In this document: positions 17,422 to 40,867 of the stretch, piece by piece | Position numbering within the stretch: position 1 is the stretch's first letter | How the letters are laid out: the number at the start of each line of letters is the position of its first letter | Program-made: the position numbers and the translations under genes | Origin: Eledone cirrhosa | Taxonomy: Eukaryota | Assembly (NCBI GenBank): GCA_964016885.1 | Contig: OZ024750.1 | Span: 15,686,001 to 15,750,000, forward strand | DNA: 64,000 nucleotides | Direction of reading: 5' to 3' | Notes under the pieces: generated by a model | The model's input: only the letters and a program-made list of their open reading frames with translations | Databases searched by the model: none | Told to the model about the DNA's origin: nothing

Positions 17422-17621
17422 CTATGATGTTAATAGGAAAGGAACATATATCATCTTGCTTTTCAACAAGAGTGCTGAGGCAGACTGGATCTCAGGTAGG
17501 CGCAGCAGAAGCTCACCAAACCTGTTAGGTTCATCAGAATGGTGAACTGCAATGTACTGTTGCAGAGCACATGTGTATCTGTCTTGAACTATCTCTACTT
17601 CTTTCACCGGCATTGTTTGAT
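17422..17621 (-). CDS. HR4: HR4 last coding exon: LBD C-terminus and stop codon
   Basis: ttctttcag|AT CAA ACA ATG ... TCA TAG; its phase matches the preceding exon; encodes [14 protein letters not shown]...YVPFLLTS*. Confidence 0.94.
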
Positions 17622-19354: not shown

Positions 19355-22300
19355 CTGCTGTTGCTGATGATGATGATGCTGTTGTTGCTGATGACTGAAT
19401 GATGACACAGTGCTGTAGTGAGCAACAAGGGCTGAACGAGATGCATTAAGTACGTTTCCGGTTGAACCGATGGGTATTTTCATCTGGTCCTTAATATCAA
19501 CGGGTTCCGTCTTGATGTTCATATCTTGGTCAACACTAATCTGGGCCACTTTCTGCTTGTACAGTTTAGCAGTTTGCTTTTTTCTCTTGTGCTTCTTGTA
19601 TTTCACCTGCAAATAATTGAGATTGTTATAATTAAAATACTGTCACTGAGTTATCCTAGTAATTCTATAGAAGTGACACAATACTGTTACAAACATCAAG
19701 AGTATTTAACTCTTTAGCATTTACATTATTCTATATATACTATTACATTTTCACAGTAAAGGCTTTATCTCACATAATATCAAACTATGAGATTTTGGTA
19801 TTATTTATTTTGAGAACAATACCATAACATAAGTATGAGCAGTCAGTTACAGCTGGTGTAAATAGAAAGAGGTGAGAAAATTCTGGCAGGATACAACTCA
19901 TTTAACACTTTAGCATTTACATTTCTGTATATATACTATTGTATTTTCATAGTAAAGGTTTTATCTTACATAATATCTCACATCATATTGAATCTATAAG
20001 TAGTGTACTGTTTCAATGTCACCACACTACTACCATGATATTACCAAATTACTTTGTAAATCGATAAAGAAACTCTACCCTTTCATTTCTACAATATACA
20101 GTATGGAATTTATCCAATAAAGTAAAATAAATTCAGCAATAAAGTCTGATATCACAGACAGATTGATGAAATTGTCAATTAAAAGTACATACACACCTTA
20201 TATAAGTTATAAACAGCTCCAGAATTACGACCACCGGGCATTCTATCTTCACGGACAGCTAAAGAATTAATAAAAAATGTTTGATTAGTTATGTATAATT
20301 TCCCCAAGATATTGTTATCATAGATATTAACATTTTAATTACATATAATTTTGAATTAGCATGTAAGTGGTTGAGTATTCCACATACACATGTACCTTTG
20401 AATTTCAAGTACAATCCACCCAACAGGCTTCCAAACAGTTTCCAGTTTGTATCTACTCAATTTGACTCACAAGACTTGGGTTAACCTAAAGCTATGGAAA
20501 AAGTCACTTGCTCAAGATGACACATGGTGGAATTGAAACCAGGACCTCATAATTACAAAGCAAATGTCTCAACCATTTAGCCATGTTGAATCCATACAAT
20601 TTTACAAGTATTACAGGTCAGAGACATTCATAATTGTCAAATCGTGTACTATTTACAGTTATTATTAGTATACAAGTTCTGTTAGTGAGTATTACTGAAA
20701 CAGCAGTAATTAAGTTAAAAAAAGTTAAAGTCAGTCCCAAGTCCGGAAGTTCAAGCTGATGCTTATCCCAGTTTTATCAGCGTTAAGTGACTGAAAGCAC
20801 AGGACTTCCCCCTGGACTGGATGCCAGTCCATCACAAGGTTAACCCCAAGGTACTCATTTTCAGCTGAGTATAATAGAATTGAATCCATGACATTATGAT
20901 TATAAGTCAAACACCCTAACTACTAGGCCACACACCTTCACAGTAGTAGTTGGTATGGTATGGTCCTGTAACTCCTGAGGGAGTCATAGAGGCACCATAG
21001 TGACATATGGTGTTTCTTGGGCATTTTAAGCTAGGCAGAGCTCATCCCTCTCCAGACCTGAACACGGCAGGTTTCTTCTGGAGAAGGATAAAAAGTGAGA
21101 AAGAGATATAGAGGAAGAATTGACCACAGTACTAGACTGGTACTTTTTTTTTTATCAACCTCAAAAGGAAGAGAAAGACATAGTAGTTAAAAAGGTCCAC
21201 TACTTACCAGCCAAAACCATTCCCATTTGTAAACATTTCTTGAAACGGCAATATTGGCACCGATTACGTTGCATCTTGTTTATCTCACAGTTGCCACTAG
21301 CAACACAGGTGTAGACCCGTTTGTTCTGCACTGTGCGTTTAAAAAATCCTTTACACCTTAAAATAGAAAGCAAAAGATAAAGAGGTTATTATTTTCAAAA
21401 ATATCTTTTTCAGGGTTTTAAACATCCACCACACAAAAATAAGGACTGAAACAGTCATAACTAATTCTCTAAGAGGGAGAGAGAGTGAAGCAAAAGTGAT
21501 ATAGAATAATCAGCCATCTCCTCTGCCTTCTCCCCATCATCATCATCGTTCAATGTCTGTTTTCCCTGCTAGCAAGGATTGCACATGTTGTCATAGACTG
21601 GTCAGTACTCAAGCAGAGCCTCTGACCTCCAGGTGTTCCATGGCCCAAACATACTATCCCATACTCTACTGAGTGCATTTTATCATGTCACCAGCACTAG
21701 CACTAGGGAGGTTGTCATGTCTTTGGAATAGCTGAAGAGTCTTAACATTTACTACAATAACATTATCTTGGTTAAGATTTAAAAGAGGTTTTGTAATAGT
21801 GCAAATTAATAGTAAAAGATTGGACGAAAGAGATGATATGAAGAAAACATCATCATCAGTTTTACGTTGACTTTTCCATGCTGGCACAGATTGGGAGAAG
21901 ACTTTTTAAGGCAATGTTTTACAGCTAGATGCCATTTCTGAGACCAACCTGCTTTGTCACCTCTTACAAGATGCAGGGATACAGTGTACCTATTCTCTAA
22001 ATTGGAAAAGGAAGAATAAAAGAGACAAAGAAGAAGAAAAAAGCTAAATAAAGTGTAGAAGATGAAGAAAATTGATAAGAAGATAAAAGTCTGACTCACC
22101 GTTCACATGTAATAATACCGTAATGATGATCAGTAGCTGTCATTACAAATGGTAAAAGTGATACAGAATCATCAGACTTATAACAATTATCATAATAACT
22201 TGATCTTGGTGAATATTTGAAGTAAGTTTAGGAAACAATAAGAATGTAAATTAACAGCAAATGGTTGAACGAAAGAGAAAGGAAGGAAGAAAGAAGACAA

Positions 22301-23209
22301 AAAAAAAGAAGAATAAAAGAAAACAAAGACAAACGATAAAAAGTGAAGAAGATGAATAAAATTGAGAAGAGAAGAGATAAAAGTCTGACTCACCCTTCAC
22401 ATGTAATGATACCATAATGAAGCCCAGTAGCTCTATCATTACAAATGGCACAAATCATTGGTTCTTCACAGTCACTATCACCTTCAGGGCTCTTCATATT
22501 ATTGCCATCTCTAGGACTGATACAGACATTATCTTCAAGAGTTGATGGTAAAGAGCTAGTGAAATACATATTAGATGGTGTACATCCTTTGTTCACGTGT
22601 GACAGGATGTGACCAGTGCTGTTTGGACCAGTCCCATTGTTATGAGGAGGTGCAGGGGCATGCCGATTATGGTTGTGATGGTGGTGGTTGTGATGGTGGC
22701 GATGCCCAGTATTCTGGCCATTACTTCCATTGATGCTGTTGCTGATGTTGTTGTTGTTGCTGGTGTCACTGTTGTTGTTGTTAAAGTTGCTGTTGGTACC
22801 ATTGTTGCTGTTACCACTAGTACTCATATCAATATTACAGTTAATACGATGGTTGCCATTTGCACCAAAATTCATTATAGTATTATTGACATTATTAACT
22901 GATGCCATGTACAAGTAATTTTCTGGATTGTTCTCAGCCATACTGCTGTTGTTACTGATGTTACTAATACTGCTACAACTGCTGTTACTGTTGCTGTTGT
23001 TACTAACCAGCCATGGTTTTTTACTGTCAACCATGTTCGGCTCATATTGTTCTTTCTGACTCGGGTTAACATATGGATACCGACAGATTTGGTAAGTAGC
23101 GCCACCTTGAGGAATTATGGTCTGGTTTGTCTTTAGATTGCCAGAGGTCAATGTAAAATGTTGTTGTGGTTGAGTTGCTACTTGCTTCAGATTACATTCT
23201 GCAGCTTGT

Positions 23210-23253
<44 letters not shown>

Positions 23254-24237
23254 ATGTTGTTGTTGTATTGAAGGTTCAATAACAAAATTTATGTGTGGGA
23301 TCTCAGTAACAGCCCCGCCATTATTGCCATTGGTGGGACTGTTGAACTGTTGGTTGGTGAGCAGTGTGGGCATTGTATAAATAGTTTGTGTTGAAGAGAT
23401 CCCTGTAGGCACTGTTGTCATCATTGGTATCATATTCACAGTTGTCATATTATCTCCCCTATTCTGATCTCCAATAATTTGTGGCTGAAAGACAAATCCC
23501 GAGGGGAAACCAACATAAGCTATTCCAAAAGGCATATTCACCGGGCCATTGTTGTTAATGCTATTACTATTAATGTTAATATTATTATCATTCTCATCTT
23601 CATTATTAAAAGAGCCACTAGCTTGATTGTTGTTCATAACAAGTAATGGATGGTTCACAATAACGTTGTTCTGGTTTTGAAGACTGCCAGAACTGCAGTT
23701 CCGATTGCCAATATCTCGATTCTGGTCAGGCTGACAGTTGCCCACATGATTTTCAGGAGTATTACACTTTTTTCTATTTTGAAAATTACTATTACTATTA
23801 TTGTTAATGTTCTCGTTATTCCTATTGTTATTATTGTTGCTGTTAGTAGTGGCTTCTACTTTAACTTTCAGAGTGAATTCTTCAAATTTTTGCTTCTCGA
23901 CAGCAGGAACATTGTTGCTTTTGTCAGGCAACGGCGCTGTATTCTGTTCGAGAAATTTCGACTTGTAGGTGTCCTCACCGGTTGCCTGTACAATAGAAGG
24001 CGAGCTGGAACTCTCGTGACTGGCATCACTGAATTGATCACAGTCAGAGACATAACCAGAACTCTCGCTGCCCATGCTACGGCGACTTTCATTGCTGGCA
24101 CAAGATTCTGTGTCACATCCAACAAGATCTAAAATACGACGTCTTTTCAGTTTCAGTTCACGATAAAGACTAATACCAGAGTTTTCCAAGTTATAAAACG
24201 GTCTTTTAAAAGTGGAAGACTCTGTTGTTGCCGTCAT
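17422..24237 (-). CDS. HR4: Nuclear hormone receptor HR4-like (NR6A group), spliced CDS of 5 exons, about 1104 aa counted from the ATG at 24237; the N-terminus may extend into upstream exons
   Basis: The assembled DBD reads [97 protein letters not shown]. The C-terminus [33 protein letters not shown] and the N-terminal LKLKRRR motif are HR4-typical. All four introns are GT-AG with consistent phases (1844+149+62+1060+200=3315 nt). Confidence 0.93.
17860..18498 (-). mobile_element. Three tandem SINE family A copies in the last HR4 intron
   Basis: Copies at about 17860-18050 (short), 18066-18286 (long) and 18308-18498 (short). Confidence 0.9.
18547..19606 (-). CDS. HR4: HR4 exon: hinge with polyQ/polyH and most of the ligand-binding domain
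   Basis: tttgcag|GTG AAA TAC AAG ... AAT CAT A|GTAAGT; 1060 nt; contains the LBD signature [33 protein letters not shown]. Confidence 0.95.
19706..20000. mobile_element. TTAA MITE plus partial second copy (intronic)
   Basis: Same body; the TIR recurs at about 19902. Confidence 0.75.
20197..20258 (-). CDS. HR4: HR4 exon: C-terminal extension of the DBD
   Basis: ttctttag|CT GTC CGT GAA GAT AGA ATG CCC GGT GGT CGT ... TAT AAG|GTGTGT; 62 nt; encodes [21 protein letters not shown]. Confidence 0.95.
20718..20940 (-). mobile_element. tRNA-derived SINE (related copy at about 53890-54170)
   Basis: Head TGAAGGTGTGTGGCCTAGTAGTTAGGGTG on the minus strand; body shared with 53890-54170. Confidence 0.65.
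21208..21356 (-). CDS. HR4: HR4 exon: end of P-box and zinc finger 2
   Basis: ttttaag|G TGT AAA GGA TTT TTT AAA CGC ... GTT TTG GCT G|GTAAGT; 149 nt; encodes [17 protein letters not shown]...CLQMGMVLA. It is too short for the ORF track. Confidence 0.96.
22008..22152 (-). pseudogene. Decayed intronic duplicate of the zinc-finger-1 exon end and adjacent intron
   Basis: Matches about 22307-22448 with donors 294 bp apart. It reads ..ICND[frameshift][11 protein letters not shown] followed by an intact GTGAGTCAGACTTTTATCT. Confidence 0.9.
22394..24237 (-). CDS. HR4: HR4 exon: long Asn/Gln/His-rich N-terminal (A/B) region plus most of zinc finger 1
   Basis: Acceptor tttctttgcag|ATG at 24237. ORF 22390..24243 ends ...[22 protein letters not shown]. 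Donor GG|GTGAGT (phase 2). Confidence 0.93.
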
Positions 24238-24933
24238 CTGCAAAGAAATAAAGAAACACTATAAATATATAAATTTGTATAAACCTATCTAACCCATGTC
24301 AGGATGAAAAAGAGGGAAAATATGATGATATATATATATATATCATATGTTTTACTTCGACTTTTTCATGCTGGCATGGGGTGGACAAAACTTTTTGAGG
24401 CAATGTTTTACAGCCAGATGCCCTTCCTGACACCGACCCTTTTACTTGCTTCTTACAACATGCAGGTATACCTATTCTGAACTGGATACACACAGTGATA
24501 TAGTGCGTTTATTATGAATCAGATCTATCAAATTATCTTTAACACATACGCTCAAATGTGATTGGCTATAACAGATCAATAAGTTAACATCAATGGTTAA
24601 TTTGTTGAGTGTAACTAGAATTTAGGTAATTTTTCAATGGAATTTCTTAAAAATGATATGCAATAAACAAAATGTCAGTCAAGCACTCCTTCACAAGACA
24701 TACCATCATTGTTAACTACAAGGGATCAGTCTGAAGCATTTGAGCGAATCTGTATCTCATGTGCTCTCTAGTGCTTACAGCTCCTGTAAATCTGCAGTAT
24801 ACAAAGTCTACATTTTTTATTAGCCTGCCTGTGATACAACTACATCTCTTGTGTGACCATAAGTTACACTGGATACAACGTATGGAATTCCACCATACTC
24901 TCCTTCTTTATTTATATATATCATCATCTTCAT

Positions 24934-25151
24934 TTAACCCTTTAGCATTTACATTACTCTATATATACTATTGTATTTTCATGGTAAAGGTTTTATCTTA
25001 CATAATTATCTCAAGTAATATCTATTCTATGAGAATTTGTTATTATTTATTTTGAGACCAATACCTTAATTCAAGTATGAGCAGCTGGTTGCACAGAAAG
25101 AGGTGAGAGAATTCTGGTTGGATACAGCCGGTTTAAATGCTAAAGGGTTAA
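24934..25151. mobile_element. piggyBac-type TTAA MITE
   Basis: TIRs and TTAA at both ends. Confidence 0.9.
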
Positions 25152-25643
25152 TGTCTGTTTACCCTTCTAACAAGGATTGGACGGGCCATCAACAGTCTGG
25201 GTTAGTACAGTGGGTAGGGAGACTGCATCTCATTTACATCCCTGCACCCTACAGAGTGCTCAGAAGAGATGGTGCCCCTCCAACTTGTTTACATATGATC
25301 TTATGTACTTTATCATGACAGCAGCACTAGTCAGGTTGTTATTGTCCTTGACACAGCTAAAGAGTCCCCTCAACCAATTGTTTAGTTGGATTTCTATAGC
25401 TGGGTAAGTCTCCTATCACCAACAACTTTACAGAGTGTACCAGGTGCAAATATTGTGTAAACACCAATACTAGGCGGGTTAGCTGAAAAGTCGTCCATAG
25501 ACAGATTAAAGTGAAGTATTTGCCAGATTATGTTGAAAGGAGGGATTAAAAGATTAACTACGGTTATTTAGATTACTGGTGCAACTTTAAATGAGATCAA
25601 GAAAAAAAAAAAAAATGGAAAAGCAAAAAAGGTTTTAACTTAC

Positions 25644-25697
25644 ATTTGCAGATCGATGGGTAGAATAAGTTAAAGTTTCACAATTTCTCTCACAAAA
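25644..25697 (-). CDS. Candidate upstream 54-nt HR4 exon (FCERNCETLTYSTHRSAN)
   Basis: Long pyrimidine tract plus CAG acceptor, GTAAGT donor, 18 open codons, phase 0/0, in frame with the exon starting at 24237. Confidence 0.6.
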
Positions 25698-25903
25698 CTG
25701 TTGACATCAAAACAGGGCAGAAATATCAGGATGAGATGAAAAAGAAGAAAAAAATTAAGAAAATTAAATCAACTGAATGATTTTATAATCAAAATAAATG
25801 AAAAAAATGTTATCCTAAAATAAAATTTACATGCGAGAGAAGCTAAACTATGCCAGTATGGAAGGTTATGATAAATAATAATTGTTTCTTATGATAAATA
25901 ATA

Positions 25904-26075
25904 ATGGTTTCTGATTTAGGCACAAAGTCAACATTTTGGGACGAGGGAAAAGTCGATTACATCGACCCCAGTGCATTACCGGTATTTTATTTTATAGACC
26001 CTGTAATGATGAAAGGCAAAGCTAATTTCGGCAGGATTTGAACTCGGAACGTAAAGGGACATAACTCTATGTCGC
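25904..26075 (-). mobile_element. SINE family A copy, truncated
   Basis: Shared core sequence. Confidence 0.8.
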
Positions 26076-26595
26076 GAGTGGCAAATTCATTCAAATAAAC
26101 CAAGAGAGATAGAGAAAAAGATAGATAGAAATAACTGAGTTGAATTTGGTGGGATTTGAATTAAGAACCAAGATGAACAAAATATATCCTATAATGTATA
26201 ACTGACATCTTTTTACTTGAGACAAAGTGAAGATATCAATTTATGATTCTATTGTTTACACGTGAAAGTCATTAGAAGAATGTGTTGTGAAGATTAGGCC
26301 TTTGTAAGGCAATATCTCTTGAAGGATGAAAAGCAAAGTTGATACTGATAGGTTTAGAACTGATAACATAATGTAACGTAACTAAATAATATAATTAATG
26401 TTGTACCCTGAAATACTTGTGTCAAGAATCTTGGTTTTTAGATACATCTAAAGACAATTGTTATTATTGGGAGTCGGGGTATATTATATATAAATATATT
26501 GGAAGGCAAAAGAACTGGGAGTCAGTGCCATGGGATTGAATGATAAAGTGAAGCAACAAAATGTATTCCCTCTTGATTCCCAATTGACTTTGTCA

Positions 26596-26803
26596 TTAAC
26601 CCTTTAGCATTTGCATTACTCCTTATATGCTATTGTATTTTTGTGGTAAAGTCTTTAACTCACATAATATTGAATCCACGAGATTATTTATTTTGAGAAC
26701 AATACCTTAACACCAGCACGAGTGGCTGGTTACAGCTCGTTTGAACAGAAAAAGGTGAGAAAATTCTGGTTGGATACAGCCGGTTTAAATGCTAAAGGGT
26801 TAA
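26596..26803. mobile_element. piggyBac-type TTAA MITE
   Basis: TIRs and TTAA at both ends. Confidence 0.9.
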
Positions 26804-28557
26804 ACCTACAAGTAAGGATTAGACTTCTACTAAATTTAAGTAACCCTACTGAGTCTGAGTGGTTTCATTGCAAAATTGGCCAGTTTACACCGATTATTAC
26901 TCAAAGATGGAAGTGACCTTAGAACAATGTCAAACAGCATCATATCAATAAAACATTTAACCAATCGGCCAAAAATTTCAAATGCTGTGAAGAACTAATA
27001 GATAGGAAATATCAAAGAGTATTTTTAATTCTTGTTTAATGTCCAGTTGGAATTTCCAACCATTTTTACGTCGACCGGGTTTTTTTAGGCAATGTTTTTA
27101 CAGCCGGATGCCCTTCCCAACACCAACCTTTTTAGTTACTTCTTATCACATGCAGGGACATAGTGCCACTATTCTTAATCGGATACACAGCAATATGCAG
27201 TATGAATGCACACAAATATATTCTTTTATGATTTAGTCTGAGAAGGAGTCGTATTACATACAGCTTTTTAAAAAAAATTCTTTGATTATTGAAATAAAAA
27301 CAGCTACTGATCAGAGCGAACATGACTGAAAGAAAAACATAGCTAAGGAGGGGAATTAGTGCTGTGTGGGGTTTAAGGGCTATGTATGACAGAGAAGGGA
27401 TGGTAGGAGGAAGAAAGACAGGGGACTCAATCAGCTAGTTCAAAGGAACAGGGGCAGTTGTAGAAAAAGAGAAAAAAAAAAAAACAGGCCGATCGGCAGG
27501 CAGGTAATTGAAGGTTTATATAACAAGTGGATATTGACCTTTTTTTTTTTCTTTTAGGTATAGTCCAATATGTGTGTATAATGAAAACACCGTCCCGGTT
27601 GTATGAGCAGTGTACTCCAATATAAATCAAATTTAACTTTATAATAGGATCTGGCAGGTGTATTATTTTGTAGTCCCAAAAGTGTTGCAACCTTGGTTAT
27701 ATCGTGTGTAATATATGAAGTTAACATTTGCAGAGAATGTGCAAGTTTTAACTTAGTTAATCGTGAGTAGTAAGAGTGCAGCGTTGTCATCACGTAAATT
27801 AATACAAATAATAAATAGACTGATACAATTAACATTTGAAGTCGAATTGGAAATATTTACTACACACACACAAAAGTATTACATTTTTTTTTTCTTTGGG
27901 AGAAAAAGAAGTAAGTATGTGTGATGGAGTTAAAAGATTATGATATGATCCTAAATGAAATAAAAGAGACTGTTTAAAAAAAAATAAAACAAACGAAGCG
28001 ATTTCCAGAAATATGGAAGAAAAAGTACAATAAAAAAAAAGGTGTAGGAAGAGAAGTGTAATCTATAGACAGAAGAAAGAATGAAGACGGTAGTGAGAAG
28101 GTGAGAGGAGTTAGAGGAATAAGACAGCAATAATGAGAGAAAATTAGTGAGGAATAGTGTAAGTTGGCTGTTGAGTGAATATAAATTGATCAAGTGAAGG
28201 GGAGATATCACTCAAGATATAAACCTGTGTAATTGAGAACACGTGTCAAATCCACTCACGTGCCAAAGTACATAAGCTCTCTCTGTGAATTATCAACTTC
28301 ACAACAGAGAACTTGCTTACTTGCGACTGAAATACTAATAAAAATAATAATAATACAAAAAAAAAAAACAACAACAACGGATGAAAGACTAAATGGAAAC
28401 ACGGGTTTCTTGAATCATAAATTGTTACTTTTTCTGCATGTATGCGAGTCAGTGTGTGAGTATGTGAGTCAGTGTGTGTGTGTGTGTCAGAGAGGAGAGA
28501 GAAAGAGTGAGTGAGTGAGGGCAGGTTACCTTCTGTATGTGGTAGTAGGATGATTAC

Positions 28558-28590
28558 CTTGCATACGTGGTTGTATAATTCTACATACAT
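28558..28590 (-). CDS. Candidate first coding segment of HR4 (MYVELYNHVCK)
   Basis: ATG at 28590, 11 codons, then an AAG|GTAATC phase-0 donor compatible with the downstream exons. No homology support. Confidence 0.3.
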
Positions 28591-29103
28591 GTGTTTTGTT
28601 GCACATGTGTCTTATGAATTTATTGCTTTTTAAAATTCTCCTCACTTCTTTTTTCTTCACTCATTCTATCTCTATCTCATCTATTTGACACGTGAATCCA
28701 TGCTTTATGTGGGAGTTTGAAGTTATAACAATTCGCACGCACACACACACACACACACGCATACATATTTGTGTGTACACACACGCACACATATATATAT
28801 ATTTATATTGTAAGTCGCTTATTGCGATCAATTTGAGACAAAAACTTTTCCATAACTATTTGTGATTATAATAAACGGATTCAATTGCATATGTATGTGT
28901 GTGTATAATATATATATATATATATTATATATATAATATATTTATATATATATACGTTAACCTTGGTCTTCCTCTTCCAGTGTGTCTATGTTGATGCCCA
29001 AAGGACATACACTGGTCTGTTGGAGACGCAGGACATGGCAGCGATAATGAGGGACAGAGACCGCTGGAGAGAACTCGTCCATGGATCTCGGGAATTTTAC
29101 CCG

Positions 29104-29171
<68 letters not shown>

Positions 29172-29175
<4 letters not shown>

Positions 29176-29312
29176 GTTTCTACTTTAAGCACAAGGCCAG
29201 CAATTACCCAGTACATTACTGGTACTTTATTTTATCCACCCCGTAAGGATGAAAGGCAAAGTTAACCTCGGCGGGATTTGAACTCAGACTGTAAAGGGAC
29301 GTAACTATGCTA
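29172..29312 (-). mobile_element. SINE family A short variant, truncated
   Basis: Shared core sequence. Confidence 0.8.
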
Positions 29313-29459
29313 GAAAGTATTAATAGTTGAGAAAATCGAATAAAGTACCTTTGGAGATAAAATGTCCCTCTAGTTACCTCAGTCAGACCCATAAGTGTGT
29401 TTTCTTTTTTTTTTTTTAATGGTTTGATCTGAAATATTGGGGAGGAGATGGATACTCAC

Positions 29460-29547
29460 CAAGCGTTTCTAAGGCCCTAAGGGACACAATAAAACGTCTA
29501 GAGTGACACCCAACGACTGGCTGCACCAGTTACTGGAACTTGCTTGA
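29460..29547 (-). other. Candidate non-coding 5' exon of HR4 (or the 3' part of a longer first exon)
   Basis: Strong donor TTG|GTGAGTA at 29459. A CAG acceptor follows a (CT)n tract. There is an in-frame stop just before the donor in phase 0. Confidence 0.4.
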
Positions 29548-29566
29548 CTGATGTAGGGAAAGCATG

Positions 29567-29619
<53 letters not shown>

Positions 29620-29620
<1 letters not shown>

Positions 29621-30780
29621 TTAGTGCAGGGCTCTGGGGTGATCTCGTCGCCAAAAGAGGTGAACATTGGATGACACTGCTCCTCCCATACATTTTAATG
29701 GTGTTGTCCTCAGATTTACGGTGATATGCTTATACAGAAACTTCGCCTTGGAATTATAGCGAATTGTGTACCTTGCCCAGAATGTTCTGAAGTCACCCCC
29801 CGTCTCCGTCTCTTCCCTTCCCTAGCACAAAAGTCTGGCGACATCTCTTCCGTAGGGCGATAGAGCGAACATCGAGCACTAGAAAGTAAAATTATACAGT
29901 CTCTCTCGCTTACAGTAAGGAGCTGTATCATATCTTGGTATACATTTCAGATGAGCTGGAGAGGCATTCCACTGTCAAACTAAAGACATTGGCAACAGAG
30001 TATGGTACGACCGATAGTCTATTTAACTAACTGTAACTAAAAATATGCCCAATTGAACATTACTGATCTGGAATATTGATAAAGAGGTACTTTTTAAACC
30101 TCCCAGATACACTTTAATTCTTAGCAAAATATGCTGCATCCCCCCACCCCCCCGTCCGCCACCAATCTCCGCCAAAAAATTCACCGCTCACACGACAGAA
30201 CAACATGACTAAATTCTCGTGTCCAAGTTCACGTGACTTTTCTGCCTGTAGGGGATAAAATCGGACATTCAACCCAACCGTGTGTCTGTAGACGAAAACT
30301 TTAAAACATTTTATTTAATCTTAAATCTGTAATGGGACAGTTGAGAGAAATTTTGTTTGTTTGTGTTTGTGTACAAATTCGGAATACTGAAGTTGAAAGA
30401 TATTTCAATGTGTACTTTCGTTTAAATAAAGTTAAATATTTTAGGTCCTTCCCTTCACAAAAAATACCCCCCTCCCTCAAAAAAAGAAGCACCCGCCCCC
30501 TCTCAAATATATACATCCACCACTTGAATCAACACAAACGGACGTATGCACTCTTACGCAATCAAATTTCACGCACTATAAATCTACAGCTTTGCTCTTT
30601 TTTTTTTTCTTCTTTTTTTTTAATGAAACGTGAGACCTGTTTAGAGAGAAGACAAGCTGCGATCTTGCTAAACGTGATCCGCCTGCCAGTGTCTGAACCT
30701 AATATCATATCAGCTACAGTAGTCAGGCAGTGCTGGCGCACCAGAACTCGTGCAAAGGAACGTGACATCATTCTCTATCT
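29620..30780 (-). promoter_or_regulatory. CpG-rich putative HR4 promoter region
   Basis: Unique sequence with visibly more CpG than the gene body. It has GC-box-like C runs at 30140-30160, CCAAT at 30162, an E2F-like CCGCCAAAA at 30169 and CACGTG at 30230. Confidence 0.4.
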
Positions 30781-30882
30781 CTCTCTCTTCCTTCTTTTCT
30801 TTCTAAATTCTCTCTATATCTCTCCTTGTCTCTCTCTCTCTCTCTCTCTCTTCCTTCTTTTCTTTCTAATTTCTCTCTCTCC

Positions 30883-30915
<33 letters not shown>

Positions 30916-31045
30916 TGATGTTCCACTTCGACACACATAAATTCTCTTCTTCGTCATAGTTGTTGTTTTTTTATTGTTTCTATGTTCATCTTTAGTTCAC
31001 CCAACAGTACACTGACCCCAGATTTTAACCATTTTATTGTATACT

Positions 31046-31091
<46 letters not shown>

Positions 31092-31099
31092 ATATATAT

Positions 31100-31248
31100 A
31101 ACTGTTTCTACTTTTGGCACAAGGCCAGCAATTACCCAGTGTATTACTGGTACTTTATTTTATCGACCCCATAAGGATGAAAGGCAAAGTTAACCTCGGC
31201 GGGATTTGAACTTAGAATGGCAAGGGCCGTAACTATGCGTCAAAGCAT
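31100..31248 (-). mobile_element. SINE family A short variant, truncated
   Basis: Shared core sequence. Confidence 0.8.
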
Positions 31249-31253
31249 ATATA

Positions 31254-31416
31254 TAACGAAGGAAGTGTGGTAAGGAACCAGGTGGACCATAACGCACCAG
31301 AGTACTCAATACTTAGGGTAGTAGAGTGGGTAATAGGAACGAGTAGGACCCCGACGGCTGAGCTCAAGCCGTTTCGACGAAACGGCTTGAGCTCAGCCGT
31401 CGGGGTCCTACTCGTT

Positions 31417-31421
<5 letters not shown>
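31254..31421 (+). mobile_element. Unclassified hairpin-tailed repeat with a perfect 44-bp stem, embedded in (TA)n
   Basis: 31333-31376 is the exact reverse complement of 31378-31421; homologous to 11199-11379. Confidence 0.85.
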
Positions 31422-31455
<34 letters not shown>

Positions 31456-32237
31456 GACGCATCTTGAAATCCCCCAATAGTATTTTTAATAAAATACATA
31501 AGCAATATAGAACCACCTACACAGATTATATAACGAGTAAGCAAGAAGCCTGCACACGGTCGATCGATCTGCTAGAAAATGCAGCCAAATCGTTTTTAAT
31601 TACTATTCTATAAGATGGTGAGATACACGGAAAAGGAGAAAAGGAGACTTGGTGGTCACAGCTGGAATACCGGTCGGACGATAAACACTCGGCAGAGAGA
31701 GAGAGAGATAACTAGGACGATGGAAGTGGAAGAGGTCGCACTTCATCGTTCGATCGATTACTTGGGTGCCTTAGTAATGGCGCTCGACCTGGGACAACAC
31801 AACAACATTTAGCTATAATGTTGCTATTTTTTTTTTAAAGCTTAACATATCTGAGGAATGCTCAGACACTTGCACGTTAATCTCAGGAGCAGGTAGTTCT
31901 GTCGATCGAATCACCAGAACACCAGTTGTCGGCAGTACCGGATTTAGGACAAATGAAGTCCTGTGCTAGTTAAGTTATGAGGCCCCTTACTTGTACCCTG
32001 AAGGAGAGCCCGGTAAAACATTTCAAAAATTCATCGTAAAAAATGTTGGGGGTAGCAGTTGTCTTGGGTTAGTAACCCTTGCCACAGGATCTATCTCCTT
32101 CACAGCAAAGATAGGGATACGAAGAAATGCATTTGCGTAGGTACCTCTCACCCAATATGAATTTTGGATCACAGCGTGGTCGTTATTGTTGCGTTATATA
32201 TATAATAGGCTACACAGGTGACAAGAACTTTTTAGTG

Positions 32238-32287
<50 letters not shown>

Positions 32288-32808
32288 AATAGAATGAAAC
32301 GATATTTCATTTCTCACTCTTAGTACGACACTTACTTAAATGTAAGTATGTATGTATGTATACGTACATACATATATGTATACAGACGTACAGTAGTATG
32401 TATATATATATACATACATGCACAAATTTTGGTTATCGAGTTGAGCTCTGCTGAGGATCGAATTCCAACCGCGACCATCTCCACTGAAAGTTTTCGTGAA
32501 ATAGTCTTCAAGACTATACAGAGCATTTGTAGTTGTCCCAAATTGAAGGATGAGTATTTTAAACTTTATTTTATCATGAGTTAAGGCTCTATTGATTCTT
32601 CCCTGGATTTCACTAAATTCTGTTGGATGAGTCTATATCCTGATTCTTTTTGAGTTGAGTTTGAATTATTTTTCCCATATCTTACGTTAACTATTTTTCC
32701 CATTTTGACGCTATAGTCACTTATATATTATGGAATACTGTTGGCTTTTTGCTACAATATTTTCTATACCTTTCATTTATATATACATACATGCACACAT
32801 ATATATAT

Positions 32809-32970
32809 GCACGTATCGGTTTACCGAACATTTATTATGTGTCAGTGTTGAACAAAAAGGTGACCTGGTTGCCTAAACACCGTACGGCGTAATTCGGGCT
32901 TTGTTTGTTTACAAACAAACAAACAAACAAACCGAGCATTATAATAAATGTTCGGTAAACCGATACGTGC
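32809..32970. mobile_element. MITE-like element with about 30-bp perfect TIRs in (TA)n
   Basis: GCACGTATCGGTTTACCGAACATTTATTAT ... ATAATAAATGTTCGGTAAACCGATACGTGC. Confidence 0.8.
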
Positions 32971-33593
32971 ATATATATATATATATGTGTGCATGTATGT
33001 GTATATATACATACTACTGTACGTCTGTATACATATATGTATGTACGTATACATACATACTTACTTACATATATATATATATATATATAAAGTTTTTGTC
33101 ACCTGTATGACCTATTCGCCTCTATTTCTCTGACATAAATACCTAATATTTCATAGTTAAAACATGATATGGCTAATGGCTTAGTTTTCACTAAACACAA
33201 AGGCTCATGTTTCTATTCGCCGAGAAAGGTCAGCAGGCAATGAAACACTACTAACAAGAGAGTGGTTGCTAGATTTGGTAGTCTGTGGCGATAGGACATA
33301 TTTCAATAGGAAGAAATGTTATGTAATTAAGAATGCTTAAAAGTGAGCGTTTCGCAATTGGATTAAATACAGAGACTAATTTGTTTCATAATATTACTAA
33401 GTGCAGTTTATATAATAATTATATGTGCTTTATATTAACACATTTCATTAATAAGGGCAAACAAATTAGACTAATAAATGCGTGGTTTTGAGATGTACGG
33501 CAATTCTTTTTATAATACTTTTGGAAATAAGCACTAAGTAAGAATCGATAAATTCGACCATAGAAATGTTAGAAATATACGTGTGCGTGTAGC

Positions 33594-33795
33594 AGACCTG
33601 CCAATATCTAAAAACCCAAACTGGGAGCACCATGAAAAGTACCCTCCACAACGGGGAGAAATGAGGCAAAATGGGGAGATTTTACATAATGAAAGCTATA
33701 TACACATTTTCACAAGAGAAGACATTTCTCACCCACCTCAAAGTGGGCGGGAGATCTTCCCGTCGGACGGGGGGGAGTTGACATGTCTGGTGTGG
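33594..33795 (+). repeat. Unclassified interspersed repeat (second copy at about 36578-36750)
   Basis: AGAC(C/T)TGCCAA...TAAAAACCCAAAC...TTTACATAATGAAAGCTATA...CCCGTCGGACGGG is shared by both copies. Confidence 0.8.
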
Positions 33796-34714
33796 ACCCA
33801 TAACTCTTGAGTGATCCGTAGGAGCGCCATATTGACATATGGTGTATCTAGGGTATTTTCTTAAAACCTGACGGAGCCCATCTCCCCTCCAGGTCTGAAT
33901 ACAGCAGATTTCTTCCTGACGTTCTAACGGCTCTGCCAATTCCCCGCCTTGGCCACATAAATACACTCACTTAAAACACACACACACACACACACACAAT
34001 TATGAAAAGAAAAAAAATGAGACGATGTGTTACGTATGTGTATGTTTATAAAGAATACAACAAAAACAGGCCGAATGTATGACCCGGCTTTCTTCTAACG
34101 TCAGTAAGGCAAATATCAACTTCTTTCCAGATAAAATACACAGAAAAGATAATTTCTTTTGACTTGACCCAATTCCTTGGTAACTTTGACGTTTATATTT
34201 TTCATTAAAAGCTTTAACAGCATAAAATAAGTTTTCAATTTTGAATGAAAACCAGCTGATAGATCCAAAATATAATCCAAAAATAACCAAGCAATATGCA
34301 CTAGTTTGGCCAAGAGATACAATAAAGTTAATTGACTTCATATGGTAATAGTAATGGCTGCCATCTCTATTACTTTACTATTACATCTATCACCATTGCA
34401 TTGTCGCTCCAGGTAGAGTCGCTACTTCCCTGAATTGAGAGATCACAGTTCTGATATTACAGGCATGTGGTTAGAATGTTTCAGGAAAGAATCGCTGGAC
34501 AGATTTTACGGGTAAAACCAATTTAATCAGATATTAACATCAATTCCAGTAGGTTTTAAAACAATGCCAATCTTAATTATGACAAGTATATAACGAAACC
34601 AAAGTTTGTAATTTCAGTCCTGATTCTGTTTCAGTAGGGAAAGATAATATTAAAGCAACATACGAATTAACCTGAGGAACAGGTTAAAACGAAACAACTC
34701 TTTTATATAACAAT

Positions 34715-35125
34715 ATTAATAATAATAATAATGTTTTCTTTATTAACCACAAGGGTTTACAAAAGGATAACATTAAGGCCAACACAGAACGGTACAAATG
34801 GAGGTTTCTGCGTGTAAAAAAAAAACAGCATAAAACAAAAGCAAAGGATGTAACAAAAAGAAAGAAGAAAATTCCCTAATAAGGAGGAGACTTCCGAGGG
34901 TCACTCGCGGAGAAGGCCAACAAAAGCCACAGTCACCCTGTGTCCTAGCTCACTCTACAGGCATAGACTCAAAGCAGGCCAATTCACTCGGGCCATTCTC
35001 GCCTCTTTCAGTCACCTTTCAAGAAATTGCTTTGAAAGCAACACTTTCTTCTTCACCATGATTTTCAGGTGAAACCTGGAAAAGCCAATAAGAGCGTCAC
35101 CGAAGAAGAAAGTGTCCGTCTTCAA
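34715..35125 (-). mobile_element. L1/Tx1-like LINE 3' end
   Basis: Decayed frame KTDTFFFGDALIGFSRFHLKI...FLER*LKEARMARV, followed by AATAAA and an (ATT)n tail. Confidence 0.55.
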
Positions 35126-35810
35126 TATTATTAATAATGATGATGATTTCAAAGATAGGTATGTAAAGCGACGAATTGGCAGTCGTTAGAACATCAGATA
35201 AAATACTTTGCGATATTTCTTGAGACTCTCTGCACTCTGAATTCAAATCCCTCTTTTGTCGGAATCGTAGAGACGCTGTCGTGACATACGGCCTTTCTTG
35301 GGCACTTTAAACCTGACACAACACATTCTCTCTCTATGTACTTTTTCCATCAATTGCGAAAAGATGAAAGGCAAAATTGACCTCGACATAATTTGGACTG
35401 ATAGTGGAGAGAGCCAGAACGAACACCGTAAAGCATTCTACCCGATGTTCTAACAACTCTCCCAAGTCACCGAACTGAGAATGAGAATATATACAGACAA
35501 ACTGTTTAGAAAGAAACCTCCGGCTCCTTTACTCAGATTACAAATTTACATTTATACCGATAATTATTGGTAATCTTAGTTATGTTACAAAATATGTAAA
35601 TGACAATCTCGAAAAGCTTAGGTTTTTACGTAAAGAAATTGACACTCTTACAAGCCTTTTACAAATACAATTTATAAGCAGAGCAATAACACTAAGAAAG
35701 ATCTGTCTAAATTTCAACATGTGATAACATTTTTAGTATCAAAATTTCAACGATGGAGTTTTGTTTCTTTATTAGAAAACCGGATTCAAAAAACACATTT
35801 ATATATAATA

Positions 35811-36390
35811 ATTGCTTCTACTTTTGGCACAAGGCCAGCAATTTTGGGAGAGGGGAAAATCGGTTAAATCGACCCCAGTGCATTATTTTATCGACCCCAT
35901 AAGGATGAAAAGCAAAGCTAACCTCGGCGGGATTTGAATTCTGAATGTAAAGGACCGTATAATGAGTAGGAACGAGTTGTTAAAATATCATCATTATGTT
36001 TATTCACGTGTGACGCGCGTTTCGCGATCGTTCAGCTCAAAGTACAATCAGTATCGATCGTGTCCAACTCTGGAATCGATAGGAAACAATGAGTCTCATG
36101 AGCTATCGATTCCGGAGTAGGGCACAATCGATACTGATTGTACCTTGATCGCGAAACGTGCGTCACACGTGAATAAACATAATGATGATATTTCGACACC
36201 TTGTTCCTACTCTTGGCAGTAACGGTAGAGGTCGGACACTATGCTTTGTATCATAGTGTTACGGCCCTTTACGGTCTGAGTTCAAATCCCGCAGAGGTTA
36301 ATTTTGCCTTTCACCCTTACGGGGTCAATAAAATAAAGTACCAGTAATGCACTGGGCAATTGCTGGCCTTGTGCCAAAAGTAGAAACAAT
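35811..36390. mobile_element. Inverted SINE A pair enclosing a palindromic element of about 250 bp (35964-36212)
   Basis: SINE (-) at 35811-35958, palindrome, SINE (+) at 36213-36390. Confidence 0.85.
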
Positions 36391-36521
36391 TATATATAAA
36401 TAAGACCGTTGTGGCTCTAATCAGTCCGCAAACACTCAGCAAAGACCCTAAACCGAATGGCAACCTGTATACATGACTTTAGCCATACCAAACCGTACTC
36501 ATGTATATGTGTATGTATGTG

Positions 36522-36578
<57 letters not shown>

Positions 36579-36982
36579 GACTTGCCAAACTCTAAAAACC
36601 CAAACGGGGAGTACCATGAAAAAAAGGGCCTCCAAACGGGGAGATTTACATAATGAAAGCTATACCCATTGTCACGAGAAAAGACATCTGTCACCCATCC
36701 CAAAGTGAGTGGGAGATCGCCCCGTCGGACGGGAAGAGTTGATAGGTCTTATGTATATATATATATATATATACAAAAAAAAAAAAACCCTGGAAATAAT
36801 ACCAAATAATATTCAGGTAAAATAAGTTCCCTAAAATAGTGTTGTCATTTAATTAACTAGATCAAGGGCAGACCTTTACGAAGTTTAAAGAACAATATTG
36901 GCATTTTCATCGATCGAGGACCAATAAGAAGCCAAGTCGATCTCTGTGGGGTCAGAAGTTAGAAAATACAAGGATGAAACTA

Positions 36983-37688
36983 ATCCTAGCCCCAGCGTTT
37001 TTGCTAACACAACGACCCCACTTCCATTTTTTTTTTTCCAAATTTAATAAACTGATTAAAATATATATAAACCAACCCTAACCCCAGTGTTTTTTAACAC
37101 GACGATCCTCACCTTCCATTTTTTTCCAAATTTGATAAACTGATTAAAATATATATAAACCAACCCTAACCCCAGTGTTTTTTAACACGACGGTCCTCAC
37201 CTTCCATTTTTTTCCAAATTTGATAAACTGATTAAAATATATATAAACCAACCCTAACCCCAGTGTTTTTTAACACGACGATCCTCACCTTCCATTTTTT
37301 TCCAAATTTGATAAACTGATTAAAATATATATAAACCAACCCTAACCCCAGTGTTTTTTAACACGACGATCCTCACCTTCCATTTTTTTCCAAATTTGAT
37401 AAACTGATTAAAATATATATAAACCAACCCTAACCCCAGTGTTTTTTAACACGACGATCCTCACCTTCCATTTTTTTCCAAATTTGATAAACTGATTAAA
37501 ATATATATAAACCAACCCTAACCCCAGTGTTTTTTAACACGACGATCCTCACCTTCCATTTTTTTCCAAATTTGATAAACTGATTAAAATATATATAAAC
37601 TAACCCTAACCCCAATGTTTTTGCTAACACGATCCCACGTTCCACTTTTCCCCAAAATTTGATAAACTGATTAAAATATATATAAATT
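36983..37688. repeat. 88-bp tandem repeat, about 8 copies
   Basis: ACCAACCCTAACCCC recurs at 37071, 37159, 37247, 37335, 37423, 37511 and (variant) 37599. Confidence 0.96.
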
Positions 37689-38235
37689 AAATTCGAAACG
37701 ATTTTTGCTTTAAAGTATGTCCAAAGCTTTTCATTATTATTGTTGTTTAATATAAAATTGATTTAAAAAGAGAGACCTACCATAAAACATGCATTTTCCA
37801 TTAAATCCTTTTCACGTACGATTCAAAACAGTTCCTACACTTTCGAACTGTTCGCGAATACAAAGTATGTGAGATTAAATCCATATAATTTCACGGCCAA
37901 TTATCTACTTTCAGAATAAATATTGAAAGAAAGAAAACAATTGCTCCTCCCCTTCGACTAGTTTAGGTATGTGTGTATGAGTAAAAAAAAAAAAAAAAAG
38001 AAAGTAAGTAAAAATTAAACAATGTATTGTTTTCATATTTTTTCGTTCTTTCTCTTTTCCTCTTTCCCCTTACTCATACTCTTCCGTTTATATACATTAC
38101 ACAAGCAGCAGTACAACCACAACAGTAAAGTTTCTACCGGTAAAACAAGTAAACAAATAAACGACCCTCCCACCATCACAAAACCACCACGCAACAACAA
38201 CAACAACAACAACAACAATAACAACAATAACAACA

Positions 38236-38452
38236 ATGATTTCTAGTATAGGCACAAGGCCAGTAATTTGAGTGGAGGGGAAAGTCGATTAAATCGACTT
38301 CAGTACGTTACGGGTACTTTTAATTTATCGACCCCCGTAAGGATGAAAGTCAAAGTTAACCTCGGCGGAATTTGAACTCAGACAGTAAAGGGCCATAACT
38401 CTATGCTGCAAATCATGATATCTGATGCTCTACCGATACTGCCAACCCACCA
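38236..38452 (-). mobile_element. SINE family A copy
   Basis: Shared core sequence; adjoins (AAC)n. Confidence 0.85.
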
Positions 38453-39085
38453 AAAAAAAATAAATAATAATAATAAAATAAGAATAAAAAACAAAAAATA
38501 AAGAAAAATTTTAAATAAAAAAAAATAGTGAAATAAATAATTTATTCATTCATGAAATAGATTCCCAAATAAAAGTGATGAAAATAAAGGAAAGGTTCTT
38601 ATGTAATATTCATTTCATAGAAAGACATTGGCAAAGAATTGTTATAAATTTGAAAACACGCCCATTTGGTATTGGATAGTGCGTAGGACAAGGTCACGTG
38701 CAGTGATGTTATTTCGTAACAGTCACTAAATAGTGAAACCGAAAAACATAAGAGGGGGGGGGGTGTACTATATAAATATAAATATATACCCGCCAACCAC
38801 TCCTAGCTCCCTCACATTTCAATGCTTTTTGAATATATGTTTTTATTGTCCAAAATCCAGGACACCGATAAAAAGGCATATGCAGATTAGAAATAAAAAT
38901 AATGATAAAAAAAGATTAAAAAAAGAATCCTAAACAAAACAAGATAAGTTTTTATATCACAAAAAAAAAAAAAAAAAGCTATTAAGTATTGACATCGAAA
39001 GAGTACAAAATCCAAAATATCTGATTATTTCAATAGATTGTTGTAGAGGATAATGAGATAATGAGATAACATGTAATAAAATCAC

Positions 39086-39263
39086 GTGTCTATGTAAATA
39101 TGTATATGTGTGTAAAGATTGACCTTAAAAAACTAAAACTTCACATCAGAGATGACAAAGGACTGCCAGGGTTGGTGTCTATGTAAATATGTATGTGTGT
39201 ATGTATGTGAAGATTGACCTTAAAAAAAAACTAAAACCTCACATCAGAAATGACAAAGGACTG
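39086..39263. repeat. Tandem duplication of about 85 bp
   Basis: GTGTCTATGTAAATATGTAT...AAGATTGACCTTAAAAAA...TGACAAAGGACTG occurs twice. Confidence 0.9.
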
Positions 39264-39432
39264 GGAGAACTGGTGATGTGTTGTACAGATGAAGAAACCT
39301 GACACACCGACAGTATAAGCGTGGCCTCACTTACCCCTACCTTATCTCCCGTGTCACCCTCCCTTCAACCAGCACACCCTAGCAGGTAAGGATAGCTGCT
39401 AGGGAGTGCTGGTTGAAGGGAGGGGGACACGG

Positions 39433-39493
<61 letters not shown>

Positions 39494-40458: not shown

Positions 40459-40675
40459 ATTATTTAATCCACCAGTGGTGAATTGGCAGTATCGGTAGAG
40501 GGTTGGACACCATGCTTTCCAGCATAGTTACGTCCCTTTACAGTCTGAGTTCAAATCCCGCCGAGGTTAACTTTGCCTTTCATCCTTACGGGGTCGATAA
40601 AATAAAGTACCAGTAATGTACTGGGTAATTGCTGGCCTTGTGCCAAATGTAGAAACAATTATTTAATCCACCAGT
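40459..40675 (+). mobile_element. SINE family A short variant with an 18-bp target-site duplication
   Basis: ATTATTTAATCCACCAGT at 40459-40476 and 40658-40675. Confidence 0.92.
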
Positions 40676-40867
40676 ACCACAACATATATTTATACAGTTG
40701 AACTCACAAATATAGTATTTCTTATTTGATATGGATCAGTTGTTAATGTCATATGATGAAGGAGAAACATTATGGTAAAATGGATGCAATTTCAGTAACT
40801 GAATGGTCTTATCTCAAGCCAAGAATACTAAATATTCATTTAAATTTCCAATGTAAAGTTTATTTCA

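What the first reader, a model, noticed from the sequence alone, without database searches (positions are those of the whole stretch)
28240..28262. Tandem E-box pair with an 11-nt spacer, repeated independently 15.7 kb away
Seen: CACGTG-TCAAATCCACT-CACGTG at 28240-28262 and CACGTG-TCGGGGAAGAT-CACGTG at 43950-43972. Both spacers are exactly 11 nt, start with TC and end with T, yet their middles and flanks are unrelated, so they are not copies of one repeat. Known paired E-box grammars use shorter spacers (5 nt in the ChREBP/Mondo-Mlx ChoRE, about 6-7 nt in CLOCK:BMAL1 tandem sites). Inference: a possibly undescribed composite element CACGTG-TC-N8-T-CACGTG.
Basis: partly seen in the sequence, partly recalled or inferred. 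Interest (0 to 1): 0.72.

Follow-up and report, generated by a model that had tools for sequence, protein, structure and literature searches.

The report
Conserved clock-type enhancers at octopus NR6A
The two 11-base-spaced E-box pairs are real and sit in conserved non-coding islands within a dense E-box cluster upstream of an octopus orphan nuclear receptor gene (NR6A/HR4), which is likely switched on by the circadian CLOCK:BMAL factor; the 11-base gap is not a genome-wide rule.

Summary
Both pairs are present as described. They lie 4.0 and 19.7 kb upstream of the start codon of an octopod NR6A (HR4/GCNF) nuclear receptor gene. Spacer 11 is no genome-wide peak: 65 matches against 507 for spacers 8-10 and 601 for 12-14. 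The proposed TC-N8-T composite is not invariant: its first T differs in one relative. The pairs are still not noise. They belong to a 23-kb cluster with 15 CACGTG (2.6 expected); 14 of the window's 16 sites carry the CLOCK-type flanking T/A, against 21 of 68 in background. Eight other nuclear-receptor loci have 0-5 sites per 40 kb. Both pairs, and a textbook E1-E2 element (6-nt spacer) at 45578, fall in the few islands that align in related species. Pair 1 is gap-free in two relatives; for pair 2, deletions could not be located, and one relative breaks off inside it. Best reading: a CLOCK:BMAL-type enhancer array that likely makes NR6A a clock-controlled gene. Tandem E-boxes with 9-11-nt spacers are already described at mouse Per1 and Rev-erb-alpha. 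Binding and rhythmic expression are untested.

The parts
28240..28262 (.). E-box pair 1, 11-nt spacer, 4.0 kb upstream of the NR6A start codon
   Evidence: inside the only piece of 27200-28730 that aligns as an orthologue in organisms C and D
28208..28273 (.). conserved non-coding island over pair 1
   Evidence: C 66 letters, 4 differences, 0 gaps; D 28208-28327, 6 differences, all 25 gap letters are insertions listed from 28273 on
43950..43972 (.). E-box pair 2, 11-nt spacer, both boxes T-flanked, 19.7 kb upstream of the start codon
   Evidence: aligned through both boxes in C and F, alignment of G ends at 43959, D not covered
43925..44106 (.). conserved non-coding island over pair 2 (extent in organism C; F 43932-44264)
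45577..45596 (+). E1-E2-type element: T-flanked CACGTG, 6 nt, AACGTG
   Evidence: island 45556-45693 aligns in C, F and G; all gaps of C and F are located outside the element
22594..45583 (.). E-box cluster, 15 CACGTG (22594 in coding exon; 26259, 28240, 28257, 28689, 30230, 36005, 36166, 38695, 39083, 42599, 42693, 43950, 43967, 45578)
   Evidence: 36005 and 36166 lie in the arms of a repeated inverted-repeat element and should be discounted
22394..24237 (-). NR6A coding exon 1 (start codon 24237, N-terminal domain, first zinc finger); a splice-acceptor-like sequence directly before the ATG implies an upstream non-coding exon (inferred)
   Evidence: 77% identical to Octopus bimaculoides LOC106871674 from its first residue
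21208..21356 (-). NR6A coding exon 2 (second zinc finger)
20197..20258 (-). NR6A coding exon 3 (C-terminal extension of the DNA-binding domain)
   Evidence: matches P0002
18547..19606 (-). NR6A coding exon 4 (hinge, ligand-binding domain)
17422..17621 (-). NR6A coding exon 5 (end of ligand-binding domain, stop); five exons sum to 3315 nt, 1104 residues

Best explanation
The two pairs are conserved modules of an E-box cluster upstream of the octopod NR6A (HR4/GCNF) gene, likely an enhancer array bound by the CLOCK:BMAL heterodimer that would drive daily rhythmic transcription of this receptor. Shown: the cluster, its T-flank bias, the conserved islands, an E1-E2-type element, the gene, and a CLOCK gene in the genome. 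Inferred: that NR6A is the target (nearest gene), that CLOCK:BMAL is the factor (from flank and E1-E2 grammar), and that each box of an 11-nt pair binds its own heterodimer on roughly opposite DNA faces (17 bp centre to centre, about 220 degrees), adding occupancy without the direct dimer-dimer contact of 6-7-nt elements. The equal 11-nt length is then a tolerated or mildly favoured spacing, not a separate element.
For: CACGTGA is the top non-homopolymer 7-mer of 22.5-45.7 kb: 15 seen, 1.1 expected from 600 kb of background (region chosen after the fact). 14 of 16 sites are T/A-flanked against 21 of 68 (Fisher p=4.5e-5); a flanking T is the informative base of the CLK/CYC E1 model and AACGTG its partner (PMC2242825, passages). 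8 of 8 other nuclear-receptor loci have 0-5 CACGTG and 0-2 T/A-flanked per 40 kb, against 16 and 14 here; a clockwork-orange-like bHLH-Orange gene (label recalled) has 18 in 80 kb, a timeout-like gene 6 in 60 kb with none T/A-flanked. All 3 of 3 tandem elements in the two tested regions fall in islands that align in organism C, where 4% and 11% of the regions align (about 5e-4 by chance). In C, 0 of 13 readable core letters differ against 8 of 15 adjacent spacer letters (p=0.0025). No Pfam match over cut-off in 120 ORFs of 24.3-64 kb; the first recognisable host-gene exon upstream is about 100 kb from the ATG. A CLOCK PAS-B exon is in the genome (E=7e-25). D-box-like 8-mers are weakly enriched, 7 against 3.0 (p=0.03).
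Against: No binding or expression data. CACGTG(A) is shared by Met/SRC, MITF/TFE, USF, SREBP, Mlx and Hes/CWO factors (own knowledge). Cores against all non-core island letters is only borderline (0 of 13 against 39 of 187, p=0.054). 11 nt lies outside the cooperative 6-7 and 16-17 spacings; spacers of 9 and 10 behaved like single sites (PMC3043000). Of 3 single E-boxes tested, none was shown in a C island (42693 lies in an F piece, 42599 in a part F skips, 28689 uncovered). G breaks off inside pair 2. A review table lists mouse GCNF without the mark for BMAL1 binding in liver (PMC4210094, one table passage). The transcription start was not mapped.
Confidence: 0.5

Rival explanations
1. The islands are real enhancers of NR6A but are read by a non-clock bHLH factor (Met:SRC in a developmental hormone response, MITF/TFE, USF, SREBP, Mlx, or a Hes/CWO-type repressor), giving developmental or metabolic rather than daily control.
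For: All conservation and enrichment results fit equally. Insect HR4 is an ecdysone-response gene (10.1101/2022.05.14.491957, passage). The genome holds 6 Hairy-Orange loci and other bHLH-PAS exons. TCATGTG (M-box-like) 5 against 1.9, GTCACGTG 2 against 0.3, GCACGTG 3 against 0.9.
Against: Flanks are mostly one-sided (only 2 symmetric TCACGTGA of 14 sites; 0 CCACGTG), which suits an asymmetric heterodimer rather than homodimers (inference); a 6-nt E1-E2 element is conserved.
Confidence: 0.3
2. The 11-nt pair is a spacing-specific element of its own, used twice at this gene: two bHLH dimers bridged by a partner (for example a cryptochrome, as proposed for mouse Per1 E0-E1) that needs 9-11 nt.
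For: Same spacer twice: 0.1% given the cluster. Pair 1 is gap-free in C and D; spacer letters of pair 2 change while no insertion appears in C and F. A 9-11-nt window is functional at mPer1 under Mic-628 (PMC12846785). A rare functional grammar would not show in a genome-wide histogram.
Against: No peak at 11; 0 T-flanked direct repeats at spacer 11 among those listed for the first 326 Mb of contig C1; the cwo-like locus has no such pair; other 11-nt pairs mostly stand outside clusters; gaps are sparse in the islands anyway; deleted letters of C and F in island 2 could not be located; G differs in length there; TC is not invariant.
Confidence: 0.13
3. Chance in a CpG-retaining region: the pairs are neutral and picked out by scanning tens of thousands of windows.
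For: CpG observed/expected rises to 0.65-0.89 at 28-44 kb; genome-wide counts at 11 are near independence; 2 of 15 cluster sites come from a repeat.
Against: Neighbouring 60-124 kb has equally high CpG with 11 sites in 64 kb; CACGTG is the most enriched of 64 palindromic hexamers; the islands coincide with the pairs.
Confidence: 0.07

Closest known systems
CLOCK:BMAL1 / CLK:CYC E1-E2 tandem element (PMC2242825, PMC3043000)
   Same: T-flanked canonical E1; conserved; the element at 45578 has the canonical 6-nt spacer and AACGTG partner; several elements per target gene.
   Different: The two reported pairs have two canonical boxes 11 nt apart, outside the cooperative 6-7 and 16-17 spacings; described in insects and vertebrates, not found described in a cephalopod in my searches.
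Mouse Per1 E0-E1 (10 nt) and Rev-erb-alpha E4-E5 (9 nt) wide tandem E-boxes (PMC12846785)
   Same: Two E-boxes 9-11 nt apart, conserved; Rev-erb-alpha is also a nuclear receptor gene with two canonical boxes.
   Different: Optimum there is 10 nt and spacing dependence was shown only with the drug Mic-628; here 11 nt, twice, in a mollusc, untested.
E-box-rich regulatory regions of clock genes such as clockwork orange and Per1
   Same: Many E-boxes over kilobases upstream or in the first intron; the cwo-like gene of this genome shows a weaker cluster.
   Different: The target is NR6A/HR4, for which my searches found no report as a CLOCK target.
ChoRE (ChREBP/Mondo:Mlx; recalled)
   Same: Two E-boxes in tandem.
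   Different: 5-nt spacer; not met by the pairs.

Membership tests
CLOCK:BMAL E1-E2 element | Canonical CACGTG with flanking T (A on the other strand) | tested here: met
   14 of 16 sites; both boxes of pair 2, one of two of pair 1
CLOCK:BMAL E1-E2 element | Partner box at 6-7 nt, for the two reported pairs | tested here: not met
   spacer is 11; the pairs are not E1-E2 elements in the strict sense
CLOCK:BMAL E1-E2 element | Partner box AACGTG at 6-7 nt, for the element at 45578 | tested here: met
   gap-free in C and F
CLOCK:BMAL E1-E2 element | Evolutionary conservation of the boxes | tested here: met
   islands in C, D, F, G; 13 core letters readable in C, none changed; other core letters lie in unlisted margins
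CLOCK:BMAL E1-E2 element | Binding by CLOCK:BMAL and rhythmic target transcription | not testable with these tools
   needs ChIP, EMSA, time-course RNA
Per1/Rev-erb-alpha wide tandem E-box | Spacer within 9-11 nt | tested here: met
   11 nt, at the edge of the window reported in PMC12846785
Per1/Rev-erb-alpha wide tandem E-box | Within about 6 kb of the transcription start | tested here: inconclusive
   start not mapped; 4.0 and 19.7 kb from the ATG
Per1/Rev-erb-alpha wide tandem E-box | Spacing-dependent, CRY-dependent activity | not testable with these tools
   needs reporter series
Proposed composite CACGTG-TC-N8-T-CACGTG | Genome-wide excess at spacer 11 | tested here: not met
   65 against 507 (8-10) and 601 (12-14); on contig C1 odd spacers 9, 11, 13 give at least 5, 3, 4
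Proposed composite CACGTG-TC-N8-T-CACGTG | Invariant TC and T | tested here: not met
   T43956 is G in organism C; 3 of 25 other pairs fit
Proposed composite CACGTG-TC-N8-T-CACGTG | Spacer length kept in orthologues | tested here: inconclusive
   pair 1 kept in C and D; pair 2 without insertion in C and F but deletions not located, G breaks off
Transposon- or satellite-derived E-box pair | Multi-copy context | tested here: not met
   one genomic match each; no repeat hit on the pairs
NR6A (HR4/GCNF) nuclear receptor, for the adjacent gene | C4 zinc fingers plus ligand-binding domain, nearest named relatives NR6A, distinct from NR5 | tested here: met
   Pfam zf-C4 and Hormone_recep; a homologue cluster 91% identical in the LBD piece holds a cuttlefish protein named NR6AN; single copy, next nuclear receptors at 70% identity or less in exon 2. 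PDB scores alone do not separate NR6A1 from NR5A2; no tree was built

The most novel reading that the evidence does not exclude
NR6A/HR4 is a direct, strong CLOCK:BMAL target and a loop of the cephalopod circadian clock, taking a role like Rev-erb in vertebrates, and its two 11-nt pairs are a natural wide-spaced tandem E-box that holds two CLOCK:BMAL dimers bridged by a cryptochrome, the arrangement seen at mouse Per1 only under a drug.
Probability: 0.12. Interest if true: 0.75.

Novelty: new member of a known kind. Interest (0 to 1): 0.42.

Why it matters
Cephalopod clock circuitry is little mapped at the level of cis-elements. This locus has a denser clock-type E-box cluster than the genome's cwo-like gene and names an unexpected candidate, an orphan receptor known from insect moulting cascades and vertebrate germ cells. 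It gives three short, conserved elements that can be tested directly in reporters, and a natural case for asking whether 9-11-nt tandem E-boxes have a function without a drug.

Tried and rejected
Composite TC-N8-T element: rejected. Repeat origin of the pairs: rejected; a 17-nt tandem duplication within each pair is not evident by eye beyond the boxes. T-flanked direct-repeat histogram: the list was flooded by one satellite and an 8-nt-spacer repeat family; only the first 100 of 635 rows were shown. Genes near other 11-nt pairs: 25 of the 50 listed places were fetched (satellite and repeat places and the two here left out; 15 of 65 places not listed); 66 long ORFs gave transposon domains, Pellino, NAA35-like and NtA domains, no clock gene, a weak test because exons are short. 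9 of those 25 have both boxes T/A-flanked, more than independence gives, but local duplication would explain it; not pursued. period was not found with two Pfam models, so it could not serve as control; the TIMELESS hit looks like timeout (label recalled). No RNA holder listed; run X4 gave no real piece in 27200-28730, so the transcription start stays unmapped. Organism B covered 27272-28123 but not pair 1, D did not cover pair 2: holes prove nothing. Rfam: two tRNA-like hits only. Autoregulation by AGGTCA, RORE or CRE motifs: no enrichment. Literature: ten searches found no paper linking HR4/NR6A to E-boxes or CLOCK in molluscs and none with 'two E-boxes separated by 11'; the library lacks most subscription papers. 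Supplements of PMC3043000: 12 of 20 files searched for Nr6a1/GCNF, no hit; tables held as pictures or the 8 unsearched files may bear on it. One structure paper was not held. Earlier scan findings: none in four look-ups.

Full report
Observation. Both pairs are in the sequence at the stated coordinates. The window holds 16 CACGTG against 4.4 in dinucleotide shuffles, 15 of them between 22594 and 45583. Searches with 221 and 281 bases around the pairs returned only themselves, and neither pair is touched by a repeat hit.

The gene. The minus strand carries a five-exon coding sequence from 24237 to 17422 with C4 zinc fingers and a ligand-binding domain. Exon 1 is 77% identical to Octopus bimaculoides LOC106871674 from its first residue, and a related cluster holds a cuttlefish protein named NR6AN. 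It is the only copy among 28 nuclear-receptor matches in the 3.0-Gb genome. So the host is an octopod (inferred) and the gene is NR6A, the HR4/GCNF group (nomenclature: PMC7827873, table passage); no tree was built. The pairs lie 4.0 and 19.7 kb upstream of the ATG. None of 120 open frames in 24.3-64 kb passes a Pfam cut-off; among 122 frames of the next 100 kb the hits over cut-off are retroelement-associated and low-complexity ones, an EF-hand exon about 100 kb from the ATG and a coiled-coil exon beyond it. The transcription start is unknown.

Is 11 special genome-wide? No. Spacer 11 gives 65 matches, spacers 8-10 give 507, 12-14 give 601. Even spacers are inflated by CA/TG microsatellites and repeats; on contig C1 the odd spacers 9, 11 and 13 give at least 5, 3 and 4 in the listed rows. 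Independence predicts about 38 per spacer. Of 25 other non-satellite 11-nt pairs, 3 fit TC..T, and apart from two tandem arrays only one has three further T/A-flanked boxes within 5 kb, as both pairs here do. Within the locus the equal spacing is still a coincidence of 0.1% given the cluster, or about 1 in 28 given two close pairs.

The larger signal. Against 60 stretches of 10 kb (68 sites, at most 6 per stretch), 22.5-45.7 kb has 15 CACGTG for 2.6 expected and 15 CACGTGA for 1.1, the top palindromic hexamer of 64 and the top 7-mer after poly-A (the region was chosen after seeing the data). 14 of 16 sites have the T/A flank against 21 of 68. Two sites (36005, 36166) belong to a repeated inverted element. 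High CpG alone does not explain it: 60-124 kb has similar CpG and 11 sites in 64 kb. The 40 kb upstream of the second zinc-finger exon of 8 other nuclear receptors (8 chosen of 27) hold 0-5 sites and 0-2 T/A-flanked; a bHLH-Orange gene that I label clockwork orange from recall holds 18 and 7 in 80 kb, with no 11-nt pair; a timeout-like gene holds 6 and 0 in 60 kb. A CLOCK exon is present in the genome.

Conservation. Runs of relatives holding 5-8% of the exon's words were found; 5 of 7 such organisms were laid at 80% likeness on two regions. In 27200-28730 the only orthologous piece in C is 28208-28273 (4 differences, no gap) and in D 28208-28327 (6 differences; its 25 gap letters are all insertions from 28273 on). 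So pair 1 keeps its spacing in both; the differences could not be placed because the table was cut. The single box at 28689 was not covered. In 42460-45880 C aligns at 43925-44106 and 45556-45693 plus two short pieces, F at 43932-44264, 45497-45692 and others, G at 43842-43959, 44035-44163, 45519-45693 and others; D gave no cover of the boxes. In C, 25 of 29 and 14 of 19 differences are listed; I infer that the rest lie within about 31 letters of the piece ends. 5 of 11 spacer letters of pair 2 differ, including the T of the proposed TC, and none in the second box; F shares 4 of the 5. No insertion lies within the pair in C or F, but 6 deleted letters in C and about 11 in F could not be located, so the length of spacer 2 is likely, not surely, kept. 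G skips 75 letters with 65 of its own from 43959, so its second box may be lost or moved. At 45578 a T-flanked CACGTG is followed after 6 nt by AACGTG; all gaps of C and F lie outside it, 3 spacer letters differ in C and AACGTG does not. Summed for C: 0 of 13 readable core letters changed against 8 of 15 spacer letters (p=0.0025) and 39 of 187 non-core letters (p=0.054); 3 of 3 tandem elements lie in islands that cover 4% and 11% of the regions (about 5e-4). C and F share changes and are not independent.

Mechanism. The T flank and the AACGTG partner are the features of the CLK/CYC and CLOCK/BMAL1 E1-E2 model (PMC2242825, passages). In mouse, two heterodimers bind cooperatively at 6-7 bp, lose the effect at 9-10 and regain activity at 16-17 (PMC3043000, passages). 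An 11-nt spacer puts the boxes about 220 degrees apart, so I infer two independent dimers rather than direct contact. A second grammar exists: mouse Per1 E0-E1 (10 bp) and Rev-erb-alpha E4-E5 (9 bp) are needed for induction by Mic-628, with almost none below 9 or above 11 nt, and the authors propose CRY1 as scaffold (PMC12846785, section 6 and passages). The pairs sit at the edge of that window. I commit to a CLOCK:BMAL-type enhancer array for NR6A (0.5), against another bHLH factor (0.3), a dedicated 11-nt element (0.13) and chance (0.07). Against a conserved clock link, a review table shows mouse GCNF without the BMAL1-bound mark though with a liver entry in a column whose header I did not see (PMC4210094). 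PMC12105198, PMC10899604, PMC9928426 and 10.1101/2022.05.14.491957 were seen as passages only and give no E-box link for Hr4.

Verdict. What is there is a new instance of a known kind, a conserved clock-type E-box array, at a gene for which ten searches found no such report. The repeated 11-nt spacing remains an open, testable detail.

Noticed in passing
window 35971-36210: Long inverted-repeat element (about 240 bp, MITE-like) inserted in a SINE-like repeat; its arms carry the CACGTG at 36005 and 36166.
   Followed up: partly
window 22006-22152: Degenerate local duplicate of the 3' end of NR6A exon 1 with its splice donor (copy of 22303-22448), in intron 1.
   Followed up: no
G000 C1, many places: A dispersed repeat family carries two T/A-flanked CACGTG 8 nt apart (about 10 copies listed on C1), a possible mobile source of tandem E-boxes.
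   Followed up: no
G000:C10:17404095-17410826 (L098, L142): TIMELESS-domain gene with a single uninterrupted open frame of 2244 residues, 1.7 Mb from this window; looks like an intronless timeout (label recalled).
   Followed up: partly
G000:C1:234249491-234295000 (L132, L144-L151): bHLH-Orange gene resembling clockwork orange, with 14 CACGTG in about 30 kb upstream, two with an E-box-like partner at 6 nt.
   Followed up: partly
G000:C6:25135868-25151758 (L109, L118, L119, L124-L126): Cluster of at least six divergent nuclear-receptor-type zinc-finger domains, three of them in one open frame of 2931 residues: an unusual multi-DBD protein.
   Followed up: no
window 43913-43923, 38689-38700, 45334-45384: CACATG overlapping an AGGTCA half-site just before pair 2 (inside G's aligned piece); CAAGGTCA overlapping the E-box at 38695; a D-box-like 8-mer at 45339 and AACGTG at 45379 in a piece that aligns in G.
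   Followed up: partly
window 37031-37686 and 62370-62980: Minisatellites of 88 bp (7.5 copies) and 35 bp (17.5 copies).
   Followed up: no
window 20866-20937 and 9696-9759: tRNA-like Rfam hits, probably heads of tRNA-derived SINEs.
   Followed up: no
L187, L201, L207: Three other 11-nt pairs with ATCACGTG at both boxes; neither genes nor clusters found within 5 kb.
   Followed up: partly
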